From contig CM075991.1 in NCBI GenBank assembly GCA_038087875.1, forward strand, positions 12,712,001 through 12,776,000: DNA of 64,000 nt, read 5' to 3'. Both the position numbers and the translations under genes were made by a program. Below, in pieces: positions 1-64,000 of this stretch. Under the pieces are notes generated by a model, which ran no database searches, was not told where the DNA came from, and worked only from the letters and a program-made list of their open reading frames with translations. The stretch is from Malacoraja senta (lineage: Eukaryota). Positions within the stretch are counted from its first letter, which is position 1. Every line of letters starts with the position of its first letter.

Positions 1-63
1 GTAACTCAACGGATTAGACAATATCCCTGGAGAAAAGGAATAGGTGACGTTTCAGGTCCGAAA

Positions 64-512
64 CTGTCATATGCTGAGAGAATGGAGCAGCTGGGCTTGT
101 ACACTCTGGAGTTTAGAAGGATGAGAGGGTATCTCATTGTAACATATAAGATTGTTAAGGGCTTGGACACGCTAGAGGCAGGAAACATGTTCCCGATGTT
201 GGGGGAGTCCAGAACCAGGGGCCACAGTTTAACAATAAGGAGTAAGCCATTTAGAACATAGACGAGGAAACACATTTTCTCACAGAGATTGGTGAATCTG
301 TGGAATTCTCTGCCTCAGAGGGTGGTGGAGGCAGGTTCTCTGGATGCTTTCAAGAGAGAGAGATAGATAGGGCTCTTAAAAATAGCAGAGTCAGGGGATA
401 TGAGGAGAAGGCAGGAATGGGGTAGTGATTGGGGATGATCAGCCATGATCACATTGAATGGCGGTGCTGGCTCGAAGGGCCGAATGGCCTACTCCTGCAC
501 CTATTGTCTATT
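64..512 (+). mobile_element. CR1-clade LINE 3' fragment
   Basis: ORF2 C-terminus (LGLYTLEFRRMRG) plus 3' UTR ending GGCCTACTCCTGCACCTATTGTCTATTG, the same as 5830-6275. Confidence 0.9.
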
Positions 513-659
513 GAAACATCACCTTTTCTCCAGAGATGCTGTCTCGCTGAGTTACACCAGCTTTTTCTGTTTATCTTCGATTTAAACCATCATCTGCAGT
601 TCTTACACGCATACGCACACACCTCTAGTTCTTTTTTTTTTAATTCCCCTACCATGCAT

Positions 660-970
660 AAAAAACTGACCATTCATCCTATCTAGCCCCTCATTATTTT
701 ATACACCTCCATAATATCATCCCAACTCCTGCACTTGAAGGAATAAAGTCCTAGGCTGCCCAACCTCTCTAGTGCAGGCACTCGAGTCCTGACAATATCT
801 TCATAAATCTTCTCTGCAGTATTTCTGGCTTAATGACATCTTTACTAAAGCTGAACACAATGCTCCAAGGCCGGACTCACCAGCATCTTGTACAACTGTA
901 ACGTAACGCTCCCAACGTCTATACAGTTCCCTGACTGATGAAGGCTCACATGCCAAAAGTCTTCGCCACC
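660..970 (-). mobile_element. Old CR1 fragment
   Basis: Degenerate match to the minus-strand CR1 copies at 52500-52900 and 59150-59400. Confidence 0.6.
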
Positions 971-2279
971 CGATCGTTCAGGGAACTATGTACTTCTTGA
1001 ATATGATTCTCCTGATTTTTACTATCCTTAGAACCATGGCTCAGGAAGGAGGCCGACTTACTTCCACTCTGGTTTTGTGGTTTCCGAGGGAATTGATGAG
1101 GCTAATGTAACCACAAATTCCTTCACAAATGCGGAAGCTAGTGCCCTATTCCTCGATCAACATTTCTGCCACACTGAGTTTCTGAACAGGTATTCCAGGT
1201 CAGGGGAGTAAGATTGAGCCAAGACCATCACATCAGTGCACCATGAAGCATTGACCAAAATACAGACAACCTGACCTGACCAGCACGACAGATAGCCAAT
1301 GTTGCGTCTGTGGAGAATAATCAAATAAACGGCAGCTTGGATCCAAGGTAGCGCCCAATCCAGGCCACTCTTAGAAGTGGATCAGCAATCACACATTATA
1401 ATTGCTCCATTCTTTAAATCTCTGCTCCTTCAGCTGTACACTGAATGGCTCGATTGTAATCATGTATTGTCATTCTGCTGACTGGTTAGCACACAACAAA
1501 AACTTTTCACTGTACCTGTGGCAATAAACTAAACACAAACTCAATTCTTCATGAACAACAATGCATCTCACCCTGGTGCATCCATACGGCCAGTGTGGAA
1601 AACCAGTGGCTTGAGGTTACTATCCATTAATTAAGATCAATTGAATGCAGTGACACCAGTCTGAGGCGCATGTATTGCCATCAGACCTCCTACTTGATTA
1701 GAAATAGACAAACATAGAAACTAGTTTACACAATCACAATTCAAGCATAGCGTTAAGTTTTCTACTTAAACATAACCTATTGGGTTTGGATAATTTCCCT
1801 CATTAAAGGATAACCACTGTAAATGTGCTTTTAAATTGAAGAATAACAAGAACATAACAAGAGATACATAATTCTCCAATTATTTTCACCTCCACAGGCA
1901 ACAACATTAGAGGAGTTTTCATTGCCCAATAATTTGTACATTTATGAGTGATAATTTGTATTACCCTGTGTGTGGGTGATATTTATTTAGCAACATATAT
2001 TAACCAGAACTGCTGCTCTTTGATAAAACTATCAACTTAAAAGCAATGCTTCCTAAGAAGAATTCCACCTGGTGAAACAACTGCCTTGTTTGATCCTTTG
2101 AACTTGGTTAGTGATAATATGCCAATACCTCTTAAAGAGGAGATGATCTTTGAAAGCTACTACTGGTGGCCACCATTCCAGAGTTTCGGGAAGGAAGGTG
2201 AAAATCATGCAATCGCATATAAAAGAGTAGGCTGCTAAATTTTAAGATGCAGTCTTCCATATTATCACTGGAATGTCCT

Positions 2280-2798: not shown

Positions 2799-3074
2799 TT
2801 CCTTCTCCCTGCTGCTGTGAGGCGAAAGGTACAGAAATCTGCACCACCAGACGGAGCAACAACTCCTCACTCTGCACTTTTTTTGTAGATTGACCGGTTG
2901 TGTTACTCCAGTACTTTCTGTCTTGTTTTGTAAACCGGCATCTGCGGTTCTTTGGGGATAAACCAATATTTCTAGTGTTATACGCAGTAGTACCAACATC
3001 TCCCTTTTTCCCTGAACTCATGTTGCCCCCTGGGAGAGTGGACCTTCCCTTGTGCGAGGGGTCACCCTCGGGAG

Positions 3075-3275: not shown

Positions 3276-3329
3276 GGTCAGTGTCCGGTGCTCCGTCAAT
3301 GACCCTTACGTGGATCTTGGACAAGCAGC

Positions 3330-6275: not shown

Positions 6276-6874
6276 AAAGGTTATATTGAATCTAATAAAA
6301 ACGCAGACACCATTGTCTTGATTTGTATGCCAGAGGTTTTATTGTATAGTCACCAACAGTAAATGAGGAAGTAGGTAAACACTAGATGACTGATCTAATA
6401 AAAGATTTTAGATGGCAAGTATTTTCATTTTTATTTAGGACTGCAGGGTTTTCATCAATTTTCCCTGCCTCCTTCCTGGTACTGTCACAGAACGTGTCTT
6501 TCAATGTAAATTTGCATGGGGACATGCTTTGGAGGTGTGTGGCGGTTGCCGGTCAAGTGAGAAGAACGATGCTGTCTTGTCAACAGACGCACACACAAGC
6601 AGTTGGTGTTAGTTTGGAAATTCTCGTTGATCACAGAATTTCTCACGACAGAGCGTGAGAATTGCGCGAAATGCATGAGTCTCGTGCTCAATGCGTGCGA
6701 GTCGGCAGCCCTGTTACTAGAGCAAGCCTTCTATGATCTTTGGGTCAGACAGCAACCCTGCAGAACATGGAATATTGACGTCTCGACCTGAAACATCATC
6801 ACCTGTCCATGTTCTCCAGAGATGCTGCCTGACCTGCTGAGTTACTCCAGCACTTGGTGTCCTTTCAGGCTCTA

Positions 6875-7015: not shown

Positions 7016-8059
7016 ACCCCCTGAGTCCTTTTTTTTCCTTACCGGGTCGGAAGGAACTGCAGATGCTGGTTTAAACCGAAGATGGACATAAAAAGCTGAA
7101 GTAACTCAGCAGGTCAGGCAGCATCTCTGGAGAGAATGAATGGGTTCTTCTTTTGTTCGTGTTTAAAATGATGGCCTTCGGATCCGTTAGATCCTTTTAC
7201 ACCCTGAAGCAAGATTTTGCTGCAACCATCTCAAGTTATTTGCAGTGCCTTACATTTGTTTTTCCAAAGATAACTTTAGATGCATCGATTTTTTAGAACA
7301 ATAGTTCACCTTAGGTTTGTAATCTGGCTTATTTTTCTTCTCTCGAGGCGAATTGATTCCGAGGTTCCAAAAGGCAAGGCATCTTGACGAGAGTAAATCA
7401 GAGGGGCTGTCTAGCTTGATTCCGTTATTTAGTTGAACTGGAGAATATCCCTGAGGGAGATGGTGTTGTAAAACTTGGCGAGGACACAAAGGCCGGCAGC
7501 GCGGCCATGACGGGCCGGGCCCTGGCCTGGCCTGGCCGGGCGGAGAAGCTTCTGGAAGCCGCCCGAGCCGAGCGACGAGCGACGGCCGCGGTAAATCAAT
7601 GCCGCGCTTTTTCACAGCCCCGCTCCTCGACGGTGACTCCGGCAAAGCAGCTCATTTAAAAATTAAAGATGTTTTTTAAAAAGCCGCATGAATTAAAAAC
7701 ACTATTCTGCCCCCCCCCCCCCCCCGTACACTGTAAAGTGGATCCTTTTATATAAATGCCAAGCATTATTTATTCATTCATCTTTACGTGTCACAGAGCC
7801 GCATTTTTTATTTGCAACTTTGGCACACTATATATTTAACGTTTATCCATAATGTACATACAAATATATTTAAATTTATTTGCAGGGATTTCCAGCCGAT
7901 TTAGTGATAAAAATGTAAGGAAATGTCCACTGTACGCAGATTGGTGACGACGTCCCTGTTTTTTTTGTTGTTTAAATTCAATTTTCAATTGGGCAAGGAA
8001 TTGGGATATAGAATAACGGAGGGTTTTAGGCGAGTGAAATGTGCACATTTATGTATTTT

Positions 8060-9807: not shown

Positions 9808-9838
<31 letters not shown>

Positions 9839-12800
9839 CATCAATAAGTTTTGCAGCTCAAAATAGTTTTTTTGTGTGGGATACATAGATACATAGAAAA
9901 TAGGTGCAGGAGTAGGCCATTCGGCCCTTCGAGCCTGCACTGCCATTCAATATGATCATGGCTGATCATTCAACTCAGTATCCCGTACCTGCCTTCTCTC
10001 CATACCCCCTGATCCCCTTAGCCACAAGGGCCACATCTAACTCCCTCTTAAATATAGCCAATGAACTGGCCTCAACTACCCTCTGTGGCAGAGAGTTCCA
10101 GAGATTCACCACTCTGTGTGAAAAAGTTTTTCCTCATCTCGGTCTTAAAGGATTTCTCCCTTATCCTTAAGCTGTGACCCCTTGTCCTGGACTTCCCCAA
10201 CATCGGGAACAATCTTCCTGCATCTAGCCTGTCCAACCCCATAAGAATTTTGTACGTTTCTATAAGATCCCCTCTCAACCTCCTAAATTCTAGCAAGTAT
10301 AAGCCAAGTCTATCCAGTCTTTCTTCATATGAAAGTCCTGACATCCCAGGAATCAGTCTGGGATGGGGCAATTGCTTTTAAACTATTCTGAATGTAGAGT
10401 TTGGGGCAGATTGAATTAAACTAAAGCATGGTAATATGCATTATAGTATTGTCTGAAATTTAAATCTAAAGCTTGAGTCTGGAAGTGAGGTGCAGTCATT
10501 CAATTGTGTGTCTTGAGGGTGGAAGCTTGCTCATTCTGTTACTTGTCTATTTAAATAGAGAACTTCCGTGTGCTTTGCACCAAACCAAAGGGTGAAGGGT
10601 TTAAGGGATCAGTATTCCACCGAATAATTCCTGATTTTATGTGCCAGGTATGTACAATCCTTTACTAATTGATAACTTTTTTCTTGTACTGAATTCAAGC
10701 ATATTTCTAATTTCAGTATGCTGGGATCTTTTATGTCATTCATCACGTTTTAAACAGTTGGAGCATGTTTATCAAACATCAGAGATATTTAATAAACTAA
10801 AAGCTGGCCTCTTGGGGAGCAGGAGGTGGCAACTTTGTGTAGTTGATGACTTGAACTACGGTGGCTGTCTGGGTTAATGAATTCCAATGGAATGAATATC
10901 TTAAAAATAGGTGTTGCCCTCTTGTAAGTTTCTGCCCAACCATCTTAGCATCTACCCTACCATCTTTTCTAGACTATCCAGTATTTCTCATGAGATTATG
11001 CTGTTGACTCCCAGGCCTCTTCTGTATCCATCCATGGCTGCTTCATATGGGGCAAAATAGTACATGGCATTACGTCAGTAAATGCAGTTATATCAGGTCT
11101 TCCCCATTTTTGTACTATTTATCGTACTAAAGACTGGTATTTTACTTTGCCTTTAATTGCTTGGTAACTTTGTTCCCTGTGGTAGCCAAGAGCCTTCTTT
11201 AAGAAAAAAAACATTATTCTTGGATATCTGTAAATTGACCAATACTTTTCTGATTTGGTGTGCTGTCCTTGACACCACATCTTCACAAAATCTTGTGGTG
11301 TGTGTATGTACGATGTATGCATCCATGTTGACTTGGCTCTTTCATCTGCAGTCCCATAACCATCACTTCCTTAATAAAACTCTCATTTCTTGAAGACATT
11401 TGGTTTACTGCCTTGTGGTTTCCTACTCTGTTTCTAGGGGGCCAACATGTGAATTTGATGCTTTTAATATACTCACAAGGGCTGCTATCATTTCTTGCAG
11501 GTTTCTCTTGCATCTAAAATGTTCCCATTTGTCAATAACAGACTTTTTCACTTTTATAATGCAACAGGTGACCCCATACCATATGACAATCGCCTGTTCC
11601 GTATTTGCAAAGTCTATAGAAGGGCCTTGACCTCAAACGTCATCCATTCCTTCTCTCCAGAGATGCTGCCTGTCCTGCTGTTACTCCAGCATTTTGTGCA
11701 TTTGCTAATTTGAGATATAGAATAAAAGTTTCTCATGGAATTATTGATGGGTTTATTAACCCTTCACACTTTTCATCTCATGTATCTTGATAATGCAGGT
11801 GACATAGCTCTATCTAACAATGAGCTCATTGATGATACGGTTTTCCTTTTGACAGGGATAATAAGGTGAATTGTTGATGTTTTGAGGTTTATTTTGGATG
11901 AGTTGGTTCATTGAGTAAGATCTGGTCAGTTCTTTAATTGGACTTTACCTTGCACTATACATTTATCCTATATCTGCATTGTGGATTGTAATCATGTACA
12001 CTCTTCATTGTGTGCTATTCTGACATGAAAAGCTTTGAAAAAGTACAGGTGACAATAAACTAAACTGGAAAGCAGTTAACTTTGTAGGTCGGTGTAGATT
12101 ACATTGTATTCCAGTAATCAAATAAGATGGTTTCCAGCAGAGTGATCGTGACGTGGTTATGAAGGGTTGAATGGTTGAAGTAGACTTCAGAGATGTGTTG
12201 GCAAATTGAACTGTAGAGTTTGTTTTTGCAGCAAAAAACACTGACCGATCAGATCTCCCATGCACCAGAGCGTTAGTGATGGGCTATGGAGCTGCATTCA
12301 CTTGGAATTATTCCTTGCTGAAAAATGGTGGATCTTTCTGAAGAGTAGAAGGCAGTGATGGCAAGGCTCGTGTGTGCTGTGTATCCAGTGCAATTATATT
12401 GGGGCTACTACTGGTGCTTGTTTCTGAATAGCTCAAATATCAGACTAGTAAGCAAATAATAATACTTCATGTGGAAATAATGGTTTGTGTGTTCAACCAT
12501 GTGTGATAACAAGGTTAACATTTGAGGCTTTGGTTAAGATGCTGGCTGAGAATAAGTTAATTTTTTCTGGGCAGGAATGTTATGGACAAAGCTAGGAGTA
12601 GTGAAATTGAATAGGATAACTAGTACTTGGGAAATGGGGCATAAATTTGTGCGTTGAAGCCATTTTGGGAAGTTGAATCTTGTATAGTTGTCACTCTCCG
12701 AATATTGGGTGGTATAGATGAGTTAGGCCAATTTCTGTGGAGTAAGATTCCATAATGAAGGCAGTTTGAATTATTTAGAATCTTTGTGACAAACGTACAG

Positions 12801-16748: not shown

Positions 16749-19089
16749 TGTATAAGCAAAGACAGTCAAAATAACGTTTAATTCTTCATGCACCATGTAC
16801 CATGCACACTTTGGTTCTTTTTTTTATACATGTATAGGAAAAACTAGCTGATTTTATATTTCTGGTTTATTTTGTCTCATGATCTACTATTTGCATTACA
16901 TTCTTTGTTCATATTCTGTCCAATCTTCTGACCAACTAACCATCCTCTTTATTTTTGATTTGATCTTACACATTTTTATTTAACAATGAAATGCTACTAC
17001 CATCTTACACCATCACCTCGCAGTGATTTGGGATAGTTCTCCCTCTTTCAATTTACACTCAGTTCATCTGTTTTGTTTCTGTGTACATTCTGCCAGAGCA
17101 TTCTTTCAGCCTCATCTACAAAATGATTCCTGGATATGTATCCTACATCCTATCCCTTCAAAGTCCATCATTTTCCACATTAATAGCTTTTTCTCCACAC
17201 TGATATACCACATCTTTGCAACTTATGACATCGTTATTTAAAATTGACAAATTCCCATTTCCCCAGTACTGGTCCCAATGCCAAACCAATCAGCCTACAT
17301 CAGTCTTTGATTTATGTATTAATATTTCTAATCTTATTTGTCTATATCAATTTACATGTAGCCTAGAAATTAATGGGAGATTATACTTCTGAATATGGTC
17401 CCATCTTCTAATACTAACTGTAGAACCTCTTTGTCCTGCCTCTGTGGTTGGTACTTGGTTTCAACGATGAGTAAAGCCTCCCCCTTCTGCTGTAAGTTCC
17501 TTTCCCACTTAATGCAGATATTCAGAATCATAAAAGGTGCACCATCTGTGGTGAACTGAAGAAGTGAAGGGTCTGAAGATGAGGTGTAATCCAAAACATC
17601 ATCTGTCCTTTTCTCCAAGTTAAAGATGGTAGTAGATTGAGAGACAAGCCATCTGTGAAGATCAGCAGTAGGTCTATGAATTAGAAGATGACACTAGGGA
17701 AATATGAAGGAGAAATGGCAGATTCTAAATATTGGCTGGAAACATTAAAAACAACGATAATTGAAAATCAAGGATTGTATGGAGAATGGAACATGAGGCA
17801 ACATGGCATGGAGGTGGTACTGGTAGATTAAAATTAAACGGGCAAAGTGATGCATTTTGAGAAGAGCAAAGAGTGCTTAATTGTCACGTATCAACAATGG
17901 AACAATGAAATTCTTATGGGTCCGCAATAAAACGCATAATATATGATAATCAAAAATACAATAAATTAATAACTAATACTAGATAACAGTGATAATGCAA
18001 AAACAAAAGTCCACAGAAGATCATAGGTGCTGAGATTAACGTTTCGAGCCAAGAACCTGATGGCTAACGAGAAAAAGCTGTTCTTAACTTGGTCAGTTTT
18101 CACGCCTTCCCAATGGTAGTTACGAAAGGAGAGCATAACCAGGATAGTGCAGTGGGTCTTTCATGACAATTGCTGCCTTTTTGAGGCAGCATCTATAGCT
18201 CCCTTCAATGGTGGGGAGGTCACTGATGATCAGGCCGTGTCTACCACTCTAGATACAAAGTGTGGTAGGGCTCCAGGGAGTGTTGAGGAATGGCAGGAAC
18301 AACTTCAGTGTTCAAATTGTAAGATGCCAGAAGGTGGCAGCACAGTTAGATAAGGTGATGAAAATGGCATTCGTAAGATTCGGAGGGGATATAAGTGTTT
18401 TCATTCATAGGGTGGTTGGAATCTGGAACATAGGTCCTATTATTGCACAGGAAAGTACATGAGGAGGTGAGTGGTTGGCGCGGATGAAAGTTCGGACCAG
18501 GGACTGGTGATAAGAACTGATCTGAATACTAAAAAGGAACGCAAAGATGTGTCTGATGGTGGATTACACTCAATGGTGAGAATTACAAAGGGTGAAGCAT
18601 AGATTGAGAGATATATGGTATTGGTGTATTATTGTCACGTGTAACAAGATGCAGTGCCAAACCTGTTATTTGAATTATAAGGGAGATAAAGGATATGGGA
18701 CAAATTGGAACGTAGTGTTGGGGTCAAGACTCAATCACACATTGATAATCAAAATAAGTAGATAATAGAATATCTGAAGTAAAAACAAAATGTTGCAAAT
18801 ACTTAGGAGGTCAGACAGCATCCATGGAGGGAGCAACAGAGTTAATGTTTCAGTTGGAAGACACTTCATCCGAAGTGAGAAAACAAGCAGAGTTAAGTTG
18901 CTGAGAAGATGAGGATGGGGTAGATGGGTGACTTTTTGAAGGGGGGGGGGGGGCAGTCTTACCCAGGTGTGGTGCTGATGTTTACTGGTGAAGTTTGGTA
19001 ATAGAGGGAGAGCATACAGATCGGTTACATCATGGCCTGGTTGGACAACTGGAATACCCAGGAACAATGGAGATCACAGAGAACAGAAT

Positions 19090-21178: not shown

Positions 21179-21500
21179 CGCGGTGCACGCCGGGAGCTGT
21201 AGTCCAGTAGGCGAGGCGCGTGCGCGGTGCGGCGTGGCGGGGTGGAGCCAGGGCAGGGCGGGCCGGGAGCTGTAGTCCTGTAGGCGCGTGCGCGGTGTGG
21301 CGGGGTGGAGCCAGGGCAGGGTGGGCCGGGAGCTGTAGTCCTGTAGGCGAGGCGCGTGCGCAGTGCGGCGTGGCGGGGTGGAGCCAGGGCAGGGTGGGCC
21401 GGGAGCTGTAGTCCTGTAGGCGAGGCGCGTGCGCGGTGCGGCGTGGCGGGGTGGAGCCAGGGCAGGGCAGGGCAGGGCAGGGCGGGGTGGAGCCAGGTGC
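21179..21500. promoter_or_regulatory. TMEM150A promoter minisatellite: four 63-73 bp units, each with ZNF143/THAP11-type, NRF1-type and GC-box motifs
   Basis: GGGAGCTGTAGTC (reverse GACTACAGCTCCC) at 21192, 21265, 21328 and 21401; GCGCGTGCGC and GGCGGGG in each unit; followed by (GGGCA)n; CpG island runs through exon 1. Confidence 0.8.
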
Positions 21501-49312: not shown

Positions 49313-50691
49313 AGCTGGCCTGAATCCTGTTGCTTAGGAATAGTTCCACTGTACAAAATCGCCCTCATGATGACACTAGTAAAACATCACTAAAATCTGC
49401 TTGGAGCCGATGAAGTGGGAGCGTGGTTCGGGCTGCGTAAGGGATATCACCAGTGTTGGGGAAAGGCGGTGCGGAGAATACAAATCTCCAAACACAGCAG
49501 AACTTGACGAGGCATAGATTTTGGTAAAATGAACACCCTGGTCACAGTCAAGGTATAAAGTCAGTCCACATCTGACGTCCGCATCAGATTAATGTTGGGC
49601 TCTATGTCAATGAAATATTTGTGTCTGTTTTATTGTTCAGTCAGTTACACACTACTCTGCACACTGAGGGTTTTCTTGAAGTTTATTTACTGGGTTCACA
49701 GTAAGTAGAGAATCTCCAGATCTCTAGAAGGCAGATCATGAAATATTTTTAGCTGCTTAATGAAATAAGGCAGGAATTATTCAACCCTCTCACCAAAGGC
49801 GCTGTGTCACTTTACAGTGGCCATGTTGTAGACATTGCACACCAAGGTTGACTAATATCAGCAAACTCCCTTCACCCTTTCAGTGGGTCTTCCGACTAAA
49901 CAGTAAGGTCATTGACTGCCTGGTGCTGTCTTGCTGGATGTTTAATAGAAGATGGATCTTTGTATGAAAAGTAAGAAACTCAGGGAAAAAATACATAATT
50001 GAACGGTACATGGATTGAGGAAGGCACAAAGTGCTGGAGTAACTCAGTGGGTCAGGCAGCAGCTCTGAAGAACATTAGATAAGATGTGACTCACCCAGTT
50101 ACTCCAGCACTCTGTGTCATCTTTTGTAAACCAGCATCTGCAGTTCCTTGTATCTACTGGTATGTGGATTGAGTTTGCCAAGTGAAGTTGGAGTCTTGAC
50201 CAGCCATTATGTTATTTTGCTGACACAGCCATGTTCACTCGTACACTTCCATTATTGCTGAAATATCCATTTTGAAACTCTTTGGAGGTTTGATGTTTCT
50301 TTTATTGTGGCCTCTAACGATAATGTTGCAACAGGAAAGACAGAACCCAATGCTTTCCATGAATATGTTTGTTATCTAACAAGAGAATGCTTGCATTCAT
50401 GCACAACAGAGTATCTCAACATGGGAGAAATATCTGAAGTATTAATTATTTAATGAAATATGAACCAAATCCAGCTGTCTGCCCTTTTGTAAATTATTTG
50501 TCTGTTGGAGCTAATTGTTCTCCCTCTCACTTTCCCTCCATTTGACAAACACTGTCTTGTTGTGATGTGTTTCACCCCAGTGACTTACTCCTCATGCAAG
50601 GCTGCATGACGCAAGGGAGCAGGTCTAGGGGACAGTCCAGTCACAAGCCCACTCCAAAACAGGAACTAGAGAAGTGGGGCAGTGCCTATAG

Positions 50692-51683: not shown

Positions 51684-52369
51684 TGTATTTTCAAATGTTG
51701 TAGTTCCTTTCTTTGTTTCCAAGCCTTTGGCACACATGAAATCTGCCGCCACCTGCAGGCAAGGTATGGCATATCCAGGCTGGTGGGGACGGGAGCTGGG
51801 TAAGATCGACAGTGAGGGAGGAACACAGACCTTTGGCCAACTATAGGTAACACAAATGGTGGAGTAACTCAGCGGGACAGGCAGCATCTCTGGAGAACAT
51901 GGATAGGTGACGTTTCCCATTCCTTCTCTTCAGAGATGCTGCTTGTCCCGCAGAGTTACTCCAGCATTTTGTGTCTATCTTCGCATTATGACGATATTTA
52001 TTTTGCTGAATTACATTTTCTTCCCTTTTCTGACAATTTTGCTGGGAAAAATGACAATCAGGTGTTTATATGTTACCTTTAAGCAATCTAAATCAAAACA
52101 AGAAATATATTTCTACTTTGTATTGTTTTGAAAACAATGATTTGTATAATAAATCTTAAGAAGGGTCCCAACGCAAAGTGTCACCGATTCCTTTTCTCCA
52201 GAGATGGTGACTGACCCGCTGAGTTACTCCAGCCTCTTGTGTCTATGTGTGGTATAAACCAGCATCTGTAGATTTATATAAGCAAATATGATGAATCAAT
52301 TCGAGACTGAATTTTAAATAAAGTTGTTAATTTCAAATATTTTTTAAAAAGGTTCCTTTGGGTGCTTCC

Positions 52370-52915: not shown

Positions 52916-53449
52916 TTACAGTGAAGCATAGCAGGTAAGGAAATAATGCAAAAAGTTAGATCAAGTTCTGATGTGATGATGTCCAAGGACATAAGAAAGC
53001 AGTCAATTTATATGTGGAGTTGGGAATAGTAAAGAAAAAGCAATGACACTTTAGATAGAATGTGAACATTGTTTTTGCCACCTTTTCCGATTCTGTTAGA
53101 CAAGAATATTGTTGCTAGAAATAATGTTTGTTTTATGTAAAAAGATCTTTAAAATTACAATAAATTCCTTTTAATAAGAACATTACACGTTTGTTCCATA
53201 TGTAACATGATTTCACATGCGAGTGCCAGGCCTGCAATTCCAAGCACAACTCGGCAAACAATCTTTGGAGAAAATGGTCATCATGTGTATCTGTACCTGC
53301 AGGGACTCTGCACAGCACACGTCTGAGAAAGTGTTGGGGAAACTCAGCGGGTGAGGCAGCATCTATGGAGCGAAGGAATAGGTGACGTTTCGGGTCGAGA
53401 CCCTTCTTTAGATATGTCAGATTACTAGTACTGCACTTTTGAGGTTAGA

Positions 53450-54005: not shown

Positions 54006-55183
54006 AACACTTCTCAAATATAGTTTACGTTTTAAATAGAGGTACATTTTGACAGGAGGACATTTTTTAAAAATTCATTTTAAATAAATCAACACAAAAA
54101 TGAAAAAAGACATGTTAATAAGAAACACTCAAATAATATACAAAAGAAAAAAAGAAAAATATACAGAAACCTAAAATAAATAAAAATAATAAACAAAAAT
54201 AAAAATTATATTAAAAAAAATAATGATACAATGCAACCCATACCATCAGTCACACATCCCACCCTGGCTAATTAAGAGTGAAGTGTGCACCTACACATAA
54301 CAACATTTAACAAACCAGCCATTGTTAAATGTAGTTATGTGTAGGAGCACTCTTCAGGAGGGAATCTTGGGGGGTTGTACATTTCCAGATAATGTCAATC
54401 AAAGAATGTAAGAAATGTTTGAAACAATTTTTGAGTGATAAATTGAAGTGGGGTGAGAGATGGAAAGTGAAATTGTTATTTCTTATTGTAACCACAGTTA
54501 CTGAAACACATCACTTTATATCAGCCAAACACCAAATATTGTGCAATGGGCATGGTTCTTCAGGCAGTTTCAAAGGAAATAGCAAAACATAAATGTCTCG
54601 CCATGGGAGATGTGATTATGTGTAAAAATGCATTTGTTGAGTATAAATATCACTCCTGAGTGCACCATTCCGTGAGGTACTCAAGCATGTGAAACTGAAA
54701 TGTTCGACCCAAATACCTTCTGCCTTGAGCAAACCACCTACAACACCTCTACGATTCTTTAGACTCATTTGAACGAAAAATGATCGGTTAGATTGCGACT
54801 GAGTGACTAGTGCATGTGCCATCACTTAGCTGAGAACAGAATTGGGTCATTTGTACGAGCCCAATGGAGCAGTTAACTTATATTGGATCAAAGGTAGACA
54901 CAAAATGCTGGAGTAACTCAGCGGGACAGGCAGTTCTTTCCTACACATTATATTGGATCAATCTCCATTTGGTTGAGGTAGTAGAAAGCTGGATGCTTTG
55001 GAGTAATTGCCGTTAACAGATTTGTCACTTTTTTCAGCTGTTGATGGTTCTGTAAACATTTGAAGAATATTTGATTTGAAAACAAAGCTACAGACAATAA
55101 AGATGACACATAAGGGACTTAAATCCTCAGGGAAATTTTTCCCTTGTAACTTAATAGTCTCAGATGTGCCATCTCACCTTGAA

Positions 55184-55460: not shown

Positions 55461-55918
55461 ACAATGTCAGTGTTTTCTTCTCCTTTTTTTCTTACGACGT
55501 GTACAGCTTGGCTCAATAGGAGGCTAGTTTGGTCTAAGTCAAAAGTGTGTTTGAGACCTAAACTGAATTACATAATCTAGATTAGTACTCAAATGGAGCA
55601 GCAAGTTGGTGTGTGTTTTGGGGAAAGCGTTTCAGTGACAATACAATGCCATAATCACCCATTCCTTCTCTGCAGAGATGCTGCCTGTCCTGCTGAGTTA
55701 CTCCAGCTTTTTGTGTCAATCTTTGCCAGAATTAACTTTTGTGAGCTCTTGACTGATATGATCAGCAAAGTGAAATGGCGCTGCCTGGTGCAATAACCAA
55801 AACATTGCATAAAATGACATCCTCTGCCCTGCACTGCCTCACTAATGTAATAAACAGATGGTTTAACACAGATATTTGTCCATGTGATATTACAGAACAG
55901 GATCGTATAAGAGAAATT

Positions 55919-57630: not shown

Positions 57631-57892
57631 ACCCTTGATGAGTGAACCAGGGAGTTGGGAGTCTGAAGAAGGGATTCGACCTGAAACATCACCCCCATTC
57701 CTTCTTCTCCAGGGTCGGTCTGTCTGTCTGCCTTGTCTCTGCCGTCCCTTCCACCAGAGTTGTGGCTGTGACTGTGACTGAGCCTGAGCCCGCCTTCTCC
57801 TTGGGCTTTGTGGAGGAGGGAGGAGCTGTTGTCCACGACGGGCCTAGCCGGCTCTCAGTCATCCTGAAGCCTGGGAGCGCCGGTGAAATCCA

Positions 57893-57978: not shown

Positions 57979-60900
57979 GTAGTTTTAAACTTTAAAACAA
58001 CCTTTACAGCGTGGAGTGAAGCGAATGGAGGGTGGAAATACTTCAGCCAGGCCCCCCGGAGGGAAGCAGGCCTCACGGCCCCCCGGAGGGAAGCAGGCCT
58101 CACGGCCCCCCGGAGGGAAGCAGGCCTCACGGCCCCCCCGGAGGGAAGCAGGCCTCACGGCCCCCCCGGAGGGAAGCAGGCCTCACGGCCCCCCCGGAGG
58201 GAAGCAGGCCTCACGGCCCCCCCGAGGGAAGCAGGCCTCACGGCCCCCCGGAGGGAAGCAGGCCTCACGGCCCCCCCGGAGGGAAGCAGGCCTCACGGCC
58301 CCCCCGAGGGAAGCAGGCCTCACGGCCCCCCGGAGGGAAGCAGGCCTCACGGCCCCCCCGGAGGGAAGCAGGCCTCACGGCCCCCCGCCACAGTGAAATA
58401 AAACACTACTAGTTGGGGAAAGTCACGGCTCGGACAGTAGCTGTGGGCCCATGGCCATTCATTAGAGCTGAGGAATGAAACACATTCTTTATATCCCGGT
58501 AACAGCGCAGAGTGAGTGAACAGCCCCAAAACAATAACATGAAATTGAAAAGAACCAAGAAACAAGGAAAGGAAATGTCTTGGAGAGGTTAATGTGCCTG
58601 GACATTGATTAAATGTCATCAGGGGGGAGTGTGAAGTCACTGCATGCTCTGCTTGTGGCCTTTCACAATTCCATGGGCTCTAGAGGTTTCCACAGGTAAC
58701 TGAGGGAGGGGAAAGAAAGCTGGGGAGTTGGGTTAACAGGAGGTAAAATGCTAGAACTTGTTATAATGGAAATGGTAGCATGGCCCTTTGAGAGTTTCTT
58801 CTATCCAGAGAGGCTGCCTGTCATAGTCATAGAGTGATACTGTGTGGAAACAGGCCCTTCGGCCCAACTTGCCCACACCGGCCAGCATGTCCCAACTACA
58901 CTAGTCCCACCTGCCTGCGTTAGGTCCATATCCCTCTAAACTGGTCCTATCCATGTACCTGTCTACCTGTTTCCTAAACGTTGGATTAGTCCCAGCCTCA
59001 ACCACCTCCTCTGGCAGCTTGTTCCATACACCCACCACCCTTTGTGTGAAAAAGTTACCCCTCAGATTCTTATTAAATCTTTTCCCCTTCACCTTGAACC
59101 CATGTTCTCTGGTCATCGATTCCCCTACTCTGGGCAAGAGATTCTGTGCATCTACCTGATTTATTCCTCTTATGATTTTATACACCTCTATAAGGACACC
59201 CCTCGTCCTCCTACGCTCCAAGCAACAGAGACCCAGCCTACTCAACCTCTCCCTATAGCTCACACCCTCTAGTCCTGGCAACATCCTCGTAATTTTTCTC
59301 TGAACCCTTTCAAGCTTGACAATATCTTTCTTATAACATGGTGCTCAGAACTGAACACAATACTCCAAATGCAGTCTCACCAACATCTTATATAACTGCA
59401 ACATGAGTTGTTGCATCTTCACTATCTGCCTCGCTGAGTTACTCCAGCATTTTGTGTCTACCTTTGAGAGTAGTGTTAGGATATGGGTTATATGCAGGCA
59501 GCTAAGAGTTGGTCTTGGTATTATGTTTGGTGCAGACATTCTGGGCTGAAGGACCTGTTCTTGTGCTGTACTGTTCCCTGTTCTCTGCAAGCCATCTGAG
59601 CTTATAATTTGTCCACCACGACTTCTCTGTTGATTGTAATCTTGCTTCCAAGTCAAGTCACGTTTAATTGTCACATACACATACGAGATGTGCAGTGAAA
59701 TGAAAAGTGGCAATGCTCGCGAATTGTGCTAAAAAAACAAACAAACAAACTACAAACAGAATGGAACAGAATCACATATTCACATATTACATATTTGTGG
59801 GAGGGAAGAAAAAGGGAAAAAACAGCAATTTAAAAAAGACAGCACCCAACAGTAAAATGGTACAGTAAAGTTAGTCCCTGGAGAGATAGGAGTTTACAGT
59901 CTTAATGGCCTCTGGGAAGAAACTCAATCTCATCCTCTCCGTTCGCACAGCATGGCAACGGCAGCGTTTGCCTCCAGTTCCAGTTTGCATCTATGTCTGG
60001 GATGAGGAAGGTCTCGACCCAAAACGTCACCCATTCCTTCTCTCCAGAGATGCTGCCTGTCCAGCTGAGTTTCTCCAACATTTTGTGTTTACCTTCTATG
60101 TTTGGGATGTTACTTTCCAAAATAAATTCTTCACAGCTAATAAAAGTGGTCACTTTCTGAAATATTATCTCCCTATTTCACCTACAGTCACAAAGTATGG
60201 ATCAAAATACTGCAAAAATAAAGTCACACAACATCCAAAGAGGATGGTCTGTGACTACTCAGCTTGTAATCTTTTTCCTGAATTTGTATGCTGGAGTATT
60301 TAATTATTTTCCCTTTTTGCTTGATTGCCTCACTGAAAAACATGCACGTTTATCCTGCCTGTCCAACTCCTACCAAACATTTCACCAGTTTTCTTTCTCC
60401 TTTTTATTCAGTTGCATTTGAAGATTTCTCTTTCTTTAACAAAAAGTCCTCCTCAAAATATGAAGCTTTTTTTCTTCACCCACTCACACAATCAGTCTGA
60501 AAAATAGTCACAACCCAAAACGTCGCCTATCCATGTTCTCCAGAGAAGTTGCTGAACTATTCCAGTACTTTGCCTTTTTTATACTCGTAGGGTCATATAT
60601 AGTCACTAATTGTCATTTGCTAAAACGTACCATTATAAAATAAAGATATTTGTGGACCAGTACCAGATATTTGATATTTTACTAAACAAAGACTATAATT
60701 CTGTGGATTAGTCAGTTGATTTTTGATTAGTTTCAGAATTGGATTAACAAGATAACATCCTTTCTTTGTTGGTTAAAGGTCTCTTTTGGCCGGGATGGAT
60801 CTGGACCTTGGACAGGTAGATTTTTCTGACTGGGAACACAGATTGCCGCCTGCTGCTAAAAAGGAAATTGTAAAAAATCTCCCAACTCTTCCCGTGACAC

Positions 60901-62427
60901 CAGCGCAGGCAGGTAAGTCTTTCAGTTCCAGCGCTGTGTTGTTTGGGATTAGCAGAGTTCATAGTTCAATCTTGTTAAATAATTAACACAATGTTAGGGT
61001 GTGCCTGCTTTTACGAATACTGTATTTTCGAGCTCTACACATGAGGAAGTTGTTGATTTGATCCCGGATATTATAAAGTACGCGCTACTGGAATGATGTG
61101 GTTGCGCTAGAAAAAGTACAGAAGAGATTCTGTGGAATACTTTCATCACAACAAAAGGGTTCACTGCAGGTTTCTCCAGAGCAATGTGTAAATGCAATAA
61201 ATGGGGATACATTAAAAAAAAACGAATTTGATTAATAATCGGGGCCTAAAGAAGTGCATAGTTTTTTTAAAAATTTCTCCAGTGGTGCTGTCAGAGTTGC
61301 TCAATAATTCTTGCTTTTATTTAGGTGAGATATGTCATTAGAGTGTCTTACTAAATGATTCTGTGCTGAAAGGATTATGTCCCTTCATTCAGATAGAGGC
61401 CTCAAGTGCCCAGTTTGCTTGTTAGAATTTGAGGAAGAAGAGACTGTGAAGAAAATGCCTTGTGAACATTTCTTCCATTCTGGTTGCATTGTGCCCTGGT
61501 TAGGAAAGGTAAGTGTTGCTCTCCCTCTCTCTCCTCCCTCTCAAACAGAGACATTGCATTTAATTGTATAATTCATTCCAGTAATTTTTCCCAAGCCTAC
61601 AGTCTCTTATTCTAGTGGGTAGCAAATCAGTAACTTGAGCATCCCTATTCTTGGAGATTTGGAAGGGTTCTATTCTTAACCTTTTCATTTATCTATCAGT
61701 TACCCATTCACATTTTTCCACAGACATCGTCAGTTTACCCAAGTTTGGCCAACATCTTCCTGCCACACTCTGATCAAACTTGCTTGTCATGCAGGGTATA
61801 ACATCACATTCTTGAGATCAGTTTCTGATCCATAGTAAAAGATTTTCCATTTCAAACTTCAAAATGTTATCCAACCATATTTATGTCTAGGCTGGATGAC
61901 CCGCTCAGTTACTCCAGCACTTTGTGTCGTTTTGTTTTAACCAGCATCTGCAGTTCCTTATTTCTACATTGTGACTTACCTTTATGACTATGTCTTACCG
62001 TTTTCATATCATTACTTAATTTTGTTTTATGGAAAGTGGATTAATGATTTTGGGTAATGGCCATTCATTGAAGTCAGGATGCAAATGCTAATAGATTGGT
62101 TTATTTCAAAGGCCCAATTTCCTTTCTTTTTATTTCGAACTTTTTTATCCATGTTTTGTTTCTTGGCATTATCCCTCGCACACCTTTAGGCGCTGTAGGC
62201 ACATTGACTTCCTGAGTTCCTCCCTTAACTGTTTGGTTGACTTTGTCCGTTTGATGGATAAGGAGCTTTTCTCTGCACAACACATTGTTGCATCAATTTG
62301 CTTCAGAAGCTCCCGACTTATTGAAAATTTACATTAGTTTTGTTTCTTGCAGACTAATTCATGCCCTTTATGCCGACTCGAATTGCCCACAGACAATGAA
62401 GAGTATGAAGAGTACAAGCAAGAAAAG
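57893..62427 (+). CDS. RNF181: E3 ubiquitin ligase RNF181 (RING-H2), exons 1-4; last exon outside window
   Basis: Exons 57893-57978, 60779-60912, 61393-61508, 62353-62427: [138 protein letters not shown]3H2C3 RING intact. Confidence 0.95.
58050..58387. repeat. Minisatellite in RNF181 intron 1 (12 copies of a 27-28 bp unit)
   Basis: Unit GGCCCCCC(C)GGAGGGAAGCAGGCCTCAC; copies differ only in C/G run length. Confidence 0.96.
58820..59405 (-). mobile_element. CR1/HER1-type 3' fragment in RNF181 intron 1
   Basis: [19 protein letters not shown]...[17 protein letters not shown]...GRWD*. Confidence 0.92.
59650..59975 (-). mobile_element. Rex1/Babar 3' end
   Basis: Minus strand [18 protein letters not shown]; tail TGTGACAATTAAAC + (TTGAC)n. 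Confidence 0.7.
60779..60912 (+). CDS. RNF181: RNF181 coding exon 2
   Basis: SLLAGMD...[19 protein letters not shown]...; TTAAAG| and G|GTAAGT. Confidence 0.92.
61393..61508 (+). CDS. RNF181: RNF181 coding exon 3
   Basis: [43 protein letters not shown]| and AAG|GTAAGT. Confidence 0.94.
62353..62427 (+). CDS. RNF181: RNF181 coding exon 4
   Basis: [31 protein letters not shown]| and AAG|GTAAGA. Confidence 0.94.
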
Positions 62428-62715
62428 GTAAGATGAGAAAAATACTGCAGTTATTGAAGACGTGGAAAAAAATAAACTGCAGGAAATACCATAGATCGGA
62501 TGTTCACTGCAGGCGGTGATGATTTTTCTAGTCAATTAACTTTCATAAGAAATGCAAAGTTAGAATTCTTATGCAGATGGAGAACTGGAGGCAAGATTAA
62601 GAGATAGAAACAACAAAAGATTTGTGATAGAGCGGAATTCATATGAGGATGAATGATGACAGGGATTAATGGCGCAATATAAAATGGGGCGGCAATGGAA
62701 CAAATAATTAAACAA

Positions 62716-64000
62716 AGGTACACAAAAATGCTGGAGAAACTCAGCGGGTGCAGCAGCATCTATGGAGCGAAGGAAATAGGTAACGTTTCGGGCCGAAACC
62801 CTTCTTCAGACTGATAGGGGGTGGGGAGAAGAAAGGAAAAAGGCGGAGGAGGAGCCCGAGGGCTGGGGGAGGGGAGGAGACAACCAGATGGCTGATGAAG
62901 GGGAGGGGACAGCAAGGGCTAGCAGAATTGGGAGAATTCAATGTTCAAGCCCCCAGGATGTAGACTGCCCAAGCGGAATATGAGGTGCATTTCCTCCAAT
63001 TTACGGTGTTGCTCGCTGTGGCCATGGAGGAGACCCAGGACAGAGAGGTCAGATACGGAATGGGAGGGGGAGTTGAAGTGCTGAGCCACCGGGAGTTCAG
63101 GTTGGTTATTGCGGACCGACCGGAGGTGTTCGGCGAAACGATCGCCAAGCCTCCGCTTGGTCTCACCGATGTAGATCAGCTGGCATCTAGAGCAGCGAAT
63201 GCAATAGATGAGGTTGGAGGAGATGCAGGTGAACCTCTGTCCTCATTCTTCAGGGAACGGGGGTTCCCCTCCTCCACCATAGATGAGGCTCGCACCAGGG
63301 TCTCTGCCATACCCCGCAACACTGCTCTCTCTCCCCATCCCCCCACTCACAACAAGGGCAGAGTCCCCCTAGTCCTCACCTTTCACCCCACCAGCCGTCA
63401 CATACAACAAGTGATCCTCCGTCAGTTTCGCCACCTCCAACGTGACCCCACCACTCGCCACATCTTCCCATCTCCCCCCATGTCTGCCTTCCGCAAAGAC
63501 CGCTCCCTCCGTAACTCCCTTGTCAATTCTTCCCTTCCCTCCCATACCACCCCCTCCCCTGGTACTTTCCCTTGCAACCGCAAGAGATGCAACACTTGTC
63601 CCGTCACTCCCCCCTCTACTCCATTCAAGGACCCAAGCAGTCGTTCCAGGTGCGACAGAGGTTCACCTGCATCTCCTCCAACCTCGTCTATTGCATTCGC
63701 TGCTCTAGATGCCAGCTGATCTACATCGGTGAGACCAAGCGGAGGCTTGGCGATCGTTTCGCCGAACACCTCCGGTCGGTCCGCAATAACCAACCTGAAC
63801 TCCCGGTGGCTCAGCACTTCAACTCCCCCTCCCATTCCGTATCTGACCTCTCTGTCCTGGGTCTCCTCCATGGCCACAGCGAGCAACACCGTAAATTGGA
63901 GGAAATGCACCTCATATTCCGCTTGGGCAGTCTACATCCTGGGGGCATGAACATTGAATTCTCCCAATTCTGCTAGCCCTTGCTGTCCCCTCCCCTTCAT
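62716..64000 (+). mobile_element. Young Penelope-like element (GIY-YIG) with inverted partial copy; runs off the window
   Basis: + strand 63242-63976: FFRERGFP...PLVLTFHP...CNRKRCNTCP then VYCIRCSRCQLIYIGETKRRLGDRFAEHL...VAQHFN...LGSLHPGGMNIEF (one frameshift). 62895-63241 is the reverse complement of 63654-64000. Confidence 0.95.
62775..62813 (-). ncRNA. Minimal hammerhead-ribozyme motif in the Penelope terminal repeat
   Basis: Minus strand CAGT-CTGAAGA-A-GGG-TTTCGG-CCC-GAAAC-GTTA. Confidence 0.65.

What the first reader, a model, noticed from the sequence alone, without database searches (positions are those of the whole stretch)
1..62815. Window-wide family of short Penelope-derived units carrying a minimal hammerhead-ribozyme core
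Seen: about 25 copies or fragments of a ~100-130 bp unit, with by-eye consensus GTCTGAAGAAGGGTCTCGACCCGAAACGTCACCCATTCCTTCTCTCCAGAGATGCTGCCTGTCCCGCTGAGTTACTCCAGCATTTTGTGTCTACCTT. Approximate positions: 1-64, 513-603, 2890-2950, 6780-6855, 7048-7145, 11613-11700, 17570-17618, 22600-22709, 23456-23538, 24553-24830, 27921-28030, 37209-37307, 42655-42878, 44419-44515, 46476-46570, 50020-50155, 51848-51983, 52157-52270, 53330-53412, 54892-54947, 55655-55722, 57660-57712, 59425-59464, 60004-60095, 60494-60570, 61895-61968, 62716-62815. The unit's 5' end reads CUGANGA-A-[GGG-6 nt loop-CCC]-GAAAC-GUH. The loop varies freely (TTTCGG, CCTGGA, TCCCAA, TCTCGA) while the stem and core persist. At 62716-62815 and 27921-28030 the same unit lies downstream of a GIY-YIG ORF. 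Established: Penelope-like elements carry minimal type I hammerheads in their pLTRs; the tiny palindromic stem III (here ACGU) favours cleavage as dimers; an extra nucleotide after A9 is tolerated in natural hammerheads. Inference: this genome holds a very high-copy ribozyme-bearing mini-element family, roughly one copy per 2.5 kb here. Whether it is already catalogued cannot be checked here.
Basis: partly seen in the sequence, partly recalled or inferred. Interest (0 to 1): 0.8.

Follow-up and report, generated by a model that had tools for sequence, protein, structure and literature searches.

The report
Penelope retrotransposon end-copies with hammerhead motif
These ~100-base repeats are short pasted copies of the end piece of a known kind of jumping gene (Penelope-like elements) that carries a small hammerhead-ribozyme motif; they fill about 5% of the DNA sampled from this genome, and the motif's self-cutting is only predicted.

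Summary
All 27 listed places carry the repeat (35 profile hits in the window). In 464 kb of sampled genome it occurs once per 2 kb and covers 5.1% of bases.

[quoted passage not shown] A young PLE family in this genome shows the layout unit, 1250-codon RT/GIY-YIG frame, 105-nt UTR, unit.

The motif matches the published "min-HHR" of PLE terminal repeats (Cervera & de la Pena 2014), except that helix I has only 2 bp. So the kind is known. Earlier notes of this scan describe the same thing in other shark and ray genomes.

Added here:
- About half of the motif-bearing copies start sharply at the motif's 5' edge.
- Copies end at one of two sites about 37 nt apart, the PLE "tail".
- A quarter lie head-to-head.
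- Solo copies belong to the same subfamilies as ORF-linked ones, which argues for by-products and against a separate mini-element.

Only 3 window copies keep an intact motif. Cutting is unproven: RNA reads show no ends at the cut site. However, 2 of 6 short tandem arrays elsewhere in the genome have their junction exactly at the predicted cut.

The parts
1..58 (-). unit fragment, profile positions 40-97, cut by the window start
   Evidence: nhmmer
513..613 (+). unit fragment from GAAAC to the tail end (profile 45-155), abutting a LINE 3' tail at 62-512
2891..2958 (+). weak 3' fragment (profile 82-152)
   Evidence: E 1.6e-4
6742..6785 (-). weak left arm of a head-to-head pair
   Evidence: E 0.006
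6780..6871 (+). right arm of the head-to-head pair (profile 35-123)
7041..7145 (-). unit with tail; helix II to GUC is missing, read as an internal deletion
11602..11732 (+). solo unit with decayed core (CTATAGA)
17568..17617 (+). 5' half of a unit, weak
22477..22515 (+). borderline fragment
   Evidence: E 0.0097
22589..22716 (-). solo unit of a diverged subfamily; intact strict motif at 22678-22705
23438..23542 (-). unit 5'-truncated within the CUGA box
24546..24588 (+). 5' part of a solo unit, intact motif at 24557-24584, interrupted after the GUC site by a 175-bp LINE-tail insertion
24764..24840 (+). 3' part of the same unit (profile 50-126; 7 profile positions repeated on both sides of the insertion)
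27893..28037 (-). unit with tail, continuous with PLE 3' UTR and a partial EN upstream
28129..28275 (-). C-terminal half of a GIY-YIG EN (65% identical to the family b EN)
   Evidence: tblastn
28274..28331 (+). 3' fragment of a unit
37195..37319 (+). solo unit 37207-37307 between 15-bp target-site duplications at 37192-37206 and 37308-37322
42657..42754 (+). 5'-truncated unit with tail, converging on the next copy
42772..42893 (-). unit continuous with a family a PLE 3' UTR
44409..44520 (+). solo family b unit 44417-44512 between 8-bp repeats (1 mismatch); GUH lost
46467..46575 (-). solo unit 46475-46576 between 16-bp target-site duplications at 46459-46474 and 46577-46592
50015..50074 (-). 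left arm of a head-to-head pair of 3' fragments
50087..50150 (+). right arm of that pair
51839..51934 (-). left arm of a head-to-head pair
51910..51997 (+). right arm of that pair
52147..52277 (+). solo unit with decayed core
53328..53418 (-). solo unit, core G5 changed (CTAAAGA)
54880..54933 (-). 3' fragment
55655..55731 (+). copy starting 1-2 nt before the predicted cut site, read as a chance truncation
57658..57714 (+). 5' half of a solo unit
59426..59469 (+). 3' fragment
60004..60101 (+). solo unit lacking its first ~8 nt, between 15-bp repeats (1 mismatch) at 59990-60004 and 60095-60109
60481..60594 (+). old solo unit
61891..61960 (+). 3' fragment
62707..62824 (-). family b unit with intact motif (62782-62809, GUU site), 112 nt downstream of the EN stop codon
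62922..63242 (-). GIY-YIG endonuclease end of a 5'-truncated family b PLE
   Evidence: Pfam; translation
63515..63973 (+). GIY-YIG end of a second family b copy in inverted orientation (head-to-head with the first); its unit lies beyond the window end

Best explanation
The repeats are the 100- or 137-bp terminal module of Penelope-like retrotransposons, carrying a minimal hammerhead motif, and were likely scattered as short reverse-transcribed copies by the elements' own enzyme, not by a separate mini-element.

Shown:
- The module lies between the 3' UTR and the next ORF in tandem PLE copies.
- Copies end at two fixed points about 37 nt apart.
- Many copies carry target-site duplications.
- Half of the motif-bearing copies start at the motif's 5' edge and a quarter lie head-to-head.

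Inferred:
- The RT starts inside the RNA at either of the two end points, as shown in vitro for an Anolis PLE.
- It copies back to an RNA 5' end that mostly lies 2-4 nt before CUGA. That end could be a transcription start or a processing site; which one is not known.
- The short cDNA is then joined to the target.
- Priming on both strands, or fold-back, would give the head-to-head pairs.
- The hammerhead is predicted to cut only rarely and probably with help (a partner copy or the element's protein). Most templates would therefore be uncut.
For: Identity of the module:
- Full-length family b copies read unit, 1250-codon frame, 105-nt UTR, unit, with a 3996-bp period.
- Pfam finds RVT_1 and GIY-YIG in that frame, both below Pfam's own cut-off scores.
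- Units follow EN ORFs of at least five diverged lineages.
- The unit is better conserved between lineages (0.77-0.92) than the EN coding end (0.52-0.82) or the 3' UTR (0.39-0.79).

The motif:
- CUGAAGA, one extra A, GGG/CCC plus a U-A or U-G pair, GAAA, ACGU, then GUC or GUU.
- The three subfamily consensus sequences differ within the motif only at the loop, the fourth pair, H17 and position 1.4.
- These features match the min-HHR description in PMC4209133 (results and discussion read).

Ends of the copies:
- Of 227 hits, 83 end at end 1 and 102 at the tail end.
- Of the 134 that reach CUGA, 65 have unique DNA right before the edge, 34 continue into a PLE UTR, 31 face an inverted unit and 4 a direct one.
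- Target-site duplications of 8-16 bp were found for 14 of 57 core-bearing copies.
- RNA and contig reads pile their non-matching ends at the same 5' edge and the same two 3' ends.
- This fits the two internal RT start sites and the 'tail' of PAc (PMC11167929, main text read).

By-product reading: solo, linked and inverted copies split among families a/c/b as 44/6/8, 22/6/5 and 17/5/2.

RNA ends recorded in DNA:
- One TSD-flanked insertion (L080) holds 2.3 tandem monomers, each starting at the edge.
- Two arrays (L075, L078) have their junction at the first base after GUU.
Against: - Of 3 non-tandem full-length family b copies, none starts at the motif edge. They start at -25, -65 and +76. This does not fit a simple promoter-start model, though n is small.
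- No read-end pile-up was seen at the edge or at the cut site in one poly(A) RNA run.
- Rfam hammerhead models give no hit even at E<=10.
- Helix I is 2 bp and is paired in 75% of cells.
- The minimum-energy fold of the first 45 nt is another hairpin (-10.1 kcal/mol) that ties up part of the core.
- Covariation for the hammerhead helices is weak: 5-16 of 500 shuffles reach the observed values.
- Copies starting at the cut site are no commoner than their neighbours. 2 of 154 hits start at profile positions 53-54. Of 100 listed family b copies, 5 depart from the intact sequence just upstream and none of these breaks is at the cut.
Confidence: 0.75

Rival explanations
1. The solo units are a self-propagating non-autonomous element (SINE-like, or monomers of a retrozyme). 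Each copy would be transcribed from its own start at the motif edge and copied in trans by PLE reverse transcriptase, which recognises the unit's 3' part.
For: - The ends are discrete and the copies carry TSDs.
- L080 shows short RNAs running from the edge to +287 that were copied in series.
- Tandem arrays of 254-384 bp that hold whole motifs exist in this genome.
- A 2026 preprint argues that animal retrozymes derive from PLE terminal repeats (10.64898/2026.07.22.740005; abstract and results read).
- The unit is expressed within many poly(A) transcripts.
Against: - The subfamily make-up is the same as for ORF-linked units.
- There is no tRNA-like head and no tandem unit array in the window.
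- Direct tandems are 4 of 134.
- RNA reads lie equally on both strands, and 95% run on into unrelated flanks. This fits passive embedding in other transcripts.
Confidence: 0.15
2. The hammerhead-like stretch no longer works as a ribozyme here. It would be kept as a protein-binding or folding element of the RT initiation module, and the conserved alternative hairpin (GAAGAAGGGU paired with ACCYAUUCCUUC) would be the functional form.
For: - The alternative hairpin is the minimum-energy fold in families a and b.
- It is paired in 83.8% of cells, the same as the hammerhead helices.
- The downstream 70 nt are as conserved as the core.
- There are no read ends at the cut site.
- In PAc, hammerhead mutants did not change insertion and no reads ended at the cut site (PMC11167929).
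- Naiad PLEs thrive without canonical hammerheads (PMC8557442, passages read).
Against: - Every conserved hammerhead position is kept across lineages whose EN proteins are only about 50-65% identical.
- Differences between subfamilies fall only where a hammerhead tolerates them.
- 2 of 6 arrays have their junction exactly at the predicted cut.
- The alternative hairpin shows no covariation beyond shuffles: 96-128 of 500 shuffles reach the observed values.
Confidence: 0.25
3. The units are ordinary, randomly 5'-truncated dead-on-arrival PLE copies with no preferred start.
For: - 93 of 227 hits are truncated inside the unit, at scattered positions.
- PMC4209133 already ascribed single motifs to truncated PLEs.
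Against: 65 of 134 motif-bearing copies start within a few bases of one point. This is about 25 times the per-base density of starts inside the unit. Read depth falls about ninefold across the same three bases.
Confidence: 0.05

Closest known systems
Minimal hammerheads (min-HHR) in the terminal repeats of metazoan Penelope-like elements (Cervera & de la Pena 2014, PMC4209133)
   Same: - CUGANGA and GAAA boxes.
- A base between positions 9 and 10.1.
- A G10.1-C11.1 pair.
- A palindromic 15.2-16.2 with no loop 3.
- Location in PLE terminal repeats.
- Thousands of dispersed single copies and opposite-strand pairs.
   Different: - Helix I is 2 bp here, as in the paper's Drosophila virilis variant, against 4-5 bp.
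- Helix II is 4 bp, against 6-8 bp.
- The count is far higher: 57,420 exact cores, against about 4,000 (coelacanth) and 9,000 (Xenopus) reported there with another descriptor.
- The paper does not describe a fixed 5' edge for solo copies.
PAc, a Poseidon PLE of Anolis carolinensis (Frangieh et al. 2024, PMC11167929)
   Same: - RT starts at two internal RNA sites whose spacing gives the 30-40-nt 'tail'.
- Both DNA strands are cut and extended.
- The hammerhead lies just upstream of the start sites.
- No RNA-seq reads end at the cut site.
- Uncut RNA is the main template.
   Different: - In PAc the ORF starts inside the hammerhead and RT starts 111-118 nt into the ORF.
- Here both end points (about 65 and 102 nt after the cut) precede the ATG, which lies about 135 nt after it.
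- Nothing was tested biochemically here.
Non-LTR retrozymes of animals (Cervera & de la Pena 2020, PMC7229834, search listing and abstract only; Li, Clavereau & Pollet 2026 preprint, abstract and results read)
   Same: - Short non-coding hammerhead-bearing repeats tied to PLEs.
- Monomer copies spread evenly through the genome.
- This genome also holds arrays of 138-384 bp made from the same module.
   Different: - The window's copies are solo or inverted, not tandem.
- Their ends are RT start sites and the motif edge, not the cut site.
- Circular RNA was not examined.
Complex PLE insertions: terminal pseudo-repeat, inverted 5'-truncated copy and one-sided tail (Craig et al. 2021, PMC8557442, passages read)
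   Same: - Head-to-head copies.
- An optional 30-40-bp tail.
- A tail in inverted orientation at the 5' end of L080.
- Partial tandems.
   Different: Here the arms are often only 30-140 bp long. Some junctions recur at a 15-nt palindrome within helix II of family b.

Membership tests
min-HHR of metazoan PLEs | Conserved CUGANGA and GAAA boxes | tested here: met
   There are 4 strict matches in the window against 0 in shuffles and 57,420 exact cores in the genome. Non-CpG core columns agree in 87-98% of copies.
min-HHR of metazoan PLEs | One unpaired base between A9 and G10.1, and a G10.1-C11.1 pair | tested here: met
   The extra A is kept in 97% of copies. The first helix II pair is G-C, or a standard variant, in 102 of 118 rows.
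min-HHR of metazoan PLEs | No or minimal helix III with palindromic 15.2-16.2, then a GUH site | tested here: met
   GAAAC-GUC or GAAAC-GUU reads ACGU with no loop.
min-HHR of metazoan PLEs | Helix I of 4-5 bp | tested here: not met
   Only U2.1-A1.1 and G2.2-C1.2 can pair, in 75% of cells. No further complementarity is seen in families a, b or c. The source paper reports a 2-bp helix I for D. virilis.
min-HHR of metazoan PLEs | Sits in the terminal repeat of an element with RT and GIY-YIG EN | tested here: met
min-HHR of metazoan PLEs | Self-cleavage, as a dimer | not testable with these tools
   Indirect evidence only. 2 of 6 arrays have a junction at the predicted cut. No read ends lie at the site in one RNA run.
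Rfam hammerhead families | Score at or above the family threshold | tested here: not met
   There is no hammerhead hit at gathering score or at E<=10. This is expected for a motif without helix III.
EN+ Penelope-like elements | A single ORF with RT followed by a C-terminal GIY-YIG EN | tested here: met
   The frame is 1250 codons. RVT_1 matches at aa 722-891 and GIY-YIG at aa 1142-1175, both under Pfam's cut-off. The EN motifs are readable.
EN+ Penelope-like elements | Partial tandems (pseudo-LTR), inverted 5'-truncated copies, an optional 30-40-bp tail, and TSDs | tested here: met
EN+ Penelope-like elements | Clade (Neptune, Poseidon or other) by RT phylogeny | not tested
   A Cys-rich linker (CNRKRCNTC) before the EN was seen by eye. 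That suggests Neptune-type, but no tree was built.
Non-LTR retrozymes | Tandem repeats of a short hammerhead-bearing unit | tested here: not met
   There is no unit array in the window, and 4 of 134 copies have a direct unit upstream. Arrays do exist elsewhere in the genome.
Non-LTR retrozymes | Circular RNA made by self-cleavage and ligation | not tested
   No suitable RNA data were laid.
tRNA-derived SINE | A tRNA-like Pol III head | tested here: not met
   ARAGORN finds no tRNA-like gene in the window.

The most novel reading that the evidence does not exclude
The genome keeps a DNA record of the Penelope RNA life cycle.
- The solo units are complete cDNAs of a short leader RNA that begins at the hammerhead's 5' edge.
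- The TSD-flanked mini-arrays whose junction falls on the first base after GUU are fossils of hammerhead self-cleavage in vivo, followed by end-to-end template jumping or rolling-circle reverse transcription.

If so, this would be the first in vivo evidence that a vertebrate PLE hammerhead cuts and that PLE RT makes more-than-unit copies.
Probability: 0.3. Interest if true: 0.6.

Novelty: new member of a known kind. Interest (0 to 1): 0.35.

Why it matters
PLE hammerheads have been known since 2014, yet whether they cut in cells and what they do for the element are still open questions. This genome is a dense natural data set on that problem:
- About half a unit per kb.
- A young family in which all 150 scored copies are identical over 222 residues.
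- Insertions whose ends and junctions record where templates began and where RT started.

The fixed 5' edge and the two arrays joined at the predicted cut site turn both questions into simple 5'-end mapping experiments.

For annotation, the result is practical. About 5% of the DNA is one PLE terminal module and should be masked as PLE, not as an unknown SINE.

Tried and rejected
- Rfam at gathering score and at E<=10 gave no hammerhead or other ribozyme hit.
- The look-up of sequencing runs listed no RNA holder. One raw poly(A) run was offered by study.
Read starts at the edge of young copies therefore stay unexamined.
It was replaced by the tail-ORF junction pattern.
- Counting copies with a non-T base before the cut was confounded by a GUC subfamily and was dropped.
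- Listing 12 bases upstream of 100 family b copies showed 5 that depart from the intact sequence, none of them at the cut.
- Transcription-start test: 0 of 3 non-tandem full-length copies start at the edge.
- Covariation was weak for the hammerhead helices and absent for the alternative hairpin.
- Cofolding of two 60-nt units did not give the ACGU dimer.
- The window copies at 7145 and 55655, which seemed to start at the cut site, are an internal deletion and a start 1-2 nt too early.
- Lunse et al. 2016 (PMC5785218) is not held. I know it only through the review PMC6765202.
- Searches for PLEs in cartilaginous fish found no paper that describes these units. Of the papers I opened, only the 2026 preprint samples a chondrichthyan (one). 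Its supplements were not seen and may list this family.
- Dfam and Repbase could not be consulted.

Full report
**Observation.**
- A profile built from 54 near-full copies in the window and 20 random 10-kb stretches of the same genome gave 35 window hits. They overlap all 27 listed places and add four fragments.
- The strict descriptor has 4 matches in the window against none in 100 shuffles.
- In 464 kb (the window plus 40 random 10-kb loci) there are 227 hits. That is 0.49 per kb and 5.1% of the bases. 38 of the 40 loci have at least one hit, so the window is typical.
- Exact intact cores in the 1.94-Gb assembly number 30,403 with GUC and 27,017 with GUU. The reversed-pattern controls gave 0.
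- Only 17 of the 35 window hits reach the CUGA box. Only 3 keep the full motif. The rest are truncated or decayed, mostly at CpG sites.

**What the unit is.**
- A GIY-YIG domain lies directly upstream of the unit at 62.8 kb, and a second one faces it on the other strand. A partial EN precedes the unit at 28.0 kb.
- A search of the genome with the RT part of this ORF returned 150 scored matches, all 100% identical over 222 residues, out of 28,886 candidates. Open frames reach up to 1302 codons.
- Three fetched full-length copies read: unit, 1250-codon frame, 105-nt pyrimidine-rich UTR, unit. The period is 3996 bp, and the ATG lies about 35 nt after the unit.
- Pfam sees RVT_1 and GIY-YIG in that frame, both below its own cut-offs.
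- The unit is therefore the junction module, or pseudo-LTR core, of a Penelope-like element. At least five diverged PLE lineages carry it after their EN.
- Between lineages the unit is more alike (0.77-0.92) than the EN coding end (0.52-0.82) or the UTR (0.39-0.79).

**The hammerhead motif.**
- The unit starts (C)AGU-CUGAAGA-A-GGGU-loop-ACCC-GAAA-C-GUC or GUU.
- This matches what Cervera and de la Pena (PMC4209133, results and discussion read) define as the min-HHR of metazoan PLEs:
  - both boxes;
  - a base between positions 9 and 10.1;
  - a G10.1-C11.1 pair;
  - a palindromic 15.2-16.2 with no loop 3;
  - many dispersed single copies and opposite-strand pairs.
- That paper also reports low activity in vitro, seen only with dimeric or trimeric constructs or an added helix III. 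The review PMC6765202 (passages read) says the same and cites Lunse et al. 2016, which I could not read.
- Differences here: helix I has only two pairs, as in the D. virilis variant of that paper, and helix II is short.
- Rfam models do not detect the motif.
- The three subfamily consensus sequences differ within the motif only at the loop, the fourth helix II pair (U-A or U-G), H17 and position 1.4. Twelve further differences lie in the 65 positions after position 1.4.
- Covariation is weak: 83.8% of cells are paired, and 5-16 of 500 shuffles reach the observed values.
- An alternative hairpin pairs GAAGAAGGGU with the pyrimidine run after the cut site. It is the minimum-energy fold (-10.1 kcal/mol for 45 nt). 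It is paired just as often (83.8% of cells) but shows no covariation beyond shuffles. It may be an inactive conformer.

**Ends of the copies.**
- 3' ends fall in two groups. 83 hits end near GUGUCUACCUU and 102 end about 37 nt further on, at CCUACAC. A further 27 are cut short and 15 lie between the two.
- This is the PLE 'tail'. Frangieh et al. (PMC11167929, main text read) traced it in an Anolis element to two internal RT start sites.
- 5' ends: of the 134 hits that reach CUGA,
  - 65 have unrelated DNA up to 2-4 nt before CUGA;
  - 34 continue into a PLE UTR;
  - 31 face an inverted unit;
  - 4 face a direct one.
- That is about 25 times the per-base density of starts inside the unit.
- Target-site duplications of 8-16 bp were found for 14 of 57 core-bearing copies. 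In the window they frame a 101-bp unit at 37207-37307 and a 102-bp unit at 46475-46576.

**Read evidence.** Reads of one poly(A) RNA run, and contigs of runs from three other coded organisms, were laid at 90% likeness on a family a copy.
- The clipped ends pile up at the same 5' edge and the same two 3' ends.
- Depth falls about ninefold across the edge.
- RNA depth is equal on both strands, and 95% of reads run on into unrelated sequence, so the units are mostly passengers in other transcripts.
- No pile-up of read ends appears at the predicted cut site.

**By-product or separate element?**
- Solo, ORF-linked and inverted units split among families a, c and b as 44/6/8, 22/6/5 and 17/5/2.
- There is no tRNA-like head and no tandem unit array in the window.
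- I therefore read the solo units as short products of each PLE family's own activity, not as an independent lineage.

**What sets the sharp 5' edge is not settled.**
- A template RNA that begins there is the simplest reading.
- In support, one TSD-flanked insertion (L080) holds an inverted tail followed by 2.3 tandem monomers. Each starts at the edge and ends 287 nt on, with a few extra bases at the joints, as if RT had jumped from RNA end to RNA end.
- Against a simple promoter start, three non-tandem full-length copies begin at -25, -65 and +76 relative to the edge, and five others continue into an upstream tandem copy.
- In family a the edge reads TCAGTCT. As I recall it, this resembles an initiator. 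That is a recollection and was not tested.

**Does the hammerhead cut in vivo?**
- Among solo copies there is no excess of starts at the cut site.
- The pattern for the tail-ORF junction (399 genome hits, first 100 listed) exposed six short-period arrays on one contig.
- Their monomers span +32 to +169 (period 138), +32 or +31 to +196 (period 165), 0 to +287, -32 to +223, -61 to +226 and -125 to +266, counted from the edge.
- +32 is the first base after GUU.
- Four of the six arrays have TSDs. Five of the six right ends lie at or within about 10 nt of an RT start site (the sixth, L078, ends at +118, between the two), so each array looks like one insertion event.
- Two of six junctions on a pre-specified base is unlikely by chance (roughly 1 in 1000 if junctions were spread over about 230 positions). 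But this is six arrays from one contig, and the second junction is ambiguous by one base.
- I take it as a lead that some templates were hammerhead-cleaved, not as proof.

**Known or new?**
- The kind is known: the min-HHR of PLEs, the complex insertions of PLEs (PMC8557442, passages read), internal RT initiation, and the link to retrozymes (2026 preprint, abstract and results read).
- My searches found no paper describing these units in cartilaginous fish. Supplements and repeat libraries were not seen.
- Earlier notes of this scan report the same short end-copies, the same fixed start before the motif and the same fold-back stubs in other shark and ray genomes. I reached the same reading before seeing them.
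I did not check that.
- I file the finding as a new member of a known kind. Its modest added value is the scale, the end statistics and the array junctions.

Noticed in passing
G000, many places; examples L031-L034: A very young PLE family. All 150 scored copies are 100% identical over 222 residues, out of 28,886 candidates. Open frames reach 1250-1302 codons. Tandem copies have a 3996-bp period, and head-to-head full-length pairs occur.
   Followed up: partly
L075-L080 (G000 contig C1): TSD-flanked tandem arrays of sub-genomic PLE pieces with periods of 138, 165, 254, 275, about 295 and 384 bp. Four periods hold whole hammerhead motifs (retrozyme-like). Two have monomers that begin at the predicted cut site.
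   Followed up: partly
L083-L085, also L086 and L087: Three independent fold-back insertions share one junction at the centre of a 15-nt palindrome (GTTTCGG-C-CCGAAAC) formed by helix II and the GAAA box of family b. Another pair (L087) joins exactly at the motif's 5' edge, where CAG-T-CTG is itself palindromic.
   Followed up: partly
G000 C1:3.87-4.04 Mb (listing): About 25 listed copies, mostly spaced about 2.4 kb apart, carry GAAACGAUG, a change at the U next to the cut site. This looks like a larger tandem or segmental array of one dead variant.
   Followed up: no
window 1-613 and 24589-24763: The 3' tail of an abundant CR1-like LINE lies between two inverted unit fragments at the window start. 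It also interrupts the unit at 24.6 kb right after the GUC site.
   Followed up: partly
window 28995-32762 (+): A LINE with a GDSL-esterase-type ORF1, then endonuclease/exonuclease/phosphatase and RT domains, in several frames.
   Followed up: no
unit positions 6-15 with 32-43 (for example window 37212-37250): A conserved alternative hairpin pairs the purine run of the hammerhead's 5' half with the pyrimidine run after the cut site. It would hold a monomer in an inactive fold.
   Followed up: partly
runs X1, X4, X11: Contigs of runs from three other coded organisms hold the unit at 90% likeness or more, in thousands of pieces. The module is therefore shared across related species.
   Followed up: no
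window 58050-58387 and 21189-21467: A 27-28-bp GC-rich minisatellite (12 copies) and a 73-bp GC-rich repeat (4 copies).
   Followed up: no
window 35471-35830 (+): An open frame with a sub-threshold Frag1/DRAM/Sfk1 match. It may be a host exon.
   Followed up: no
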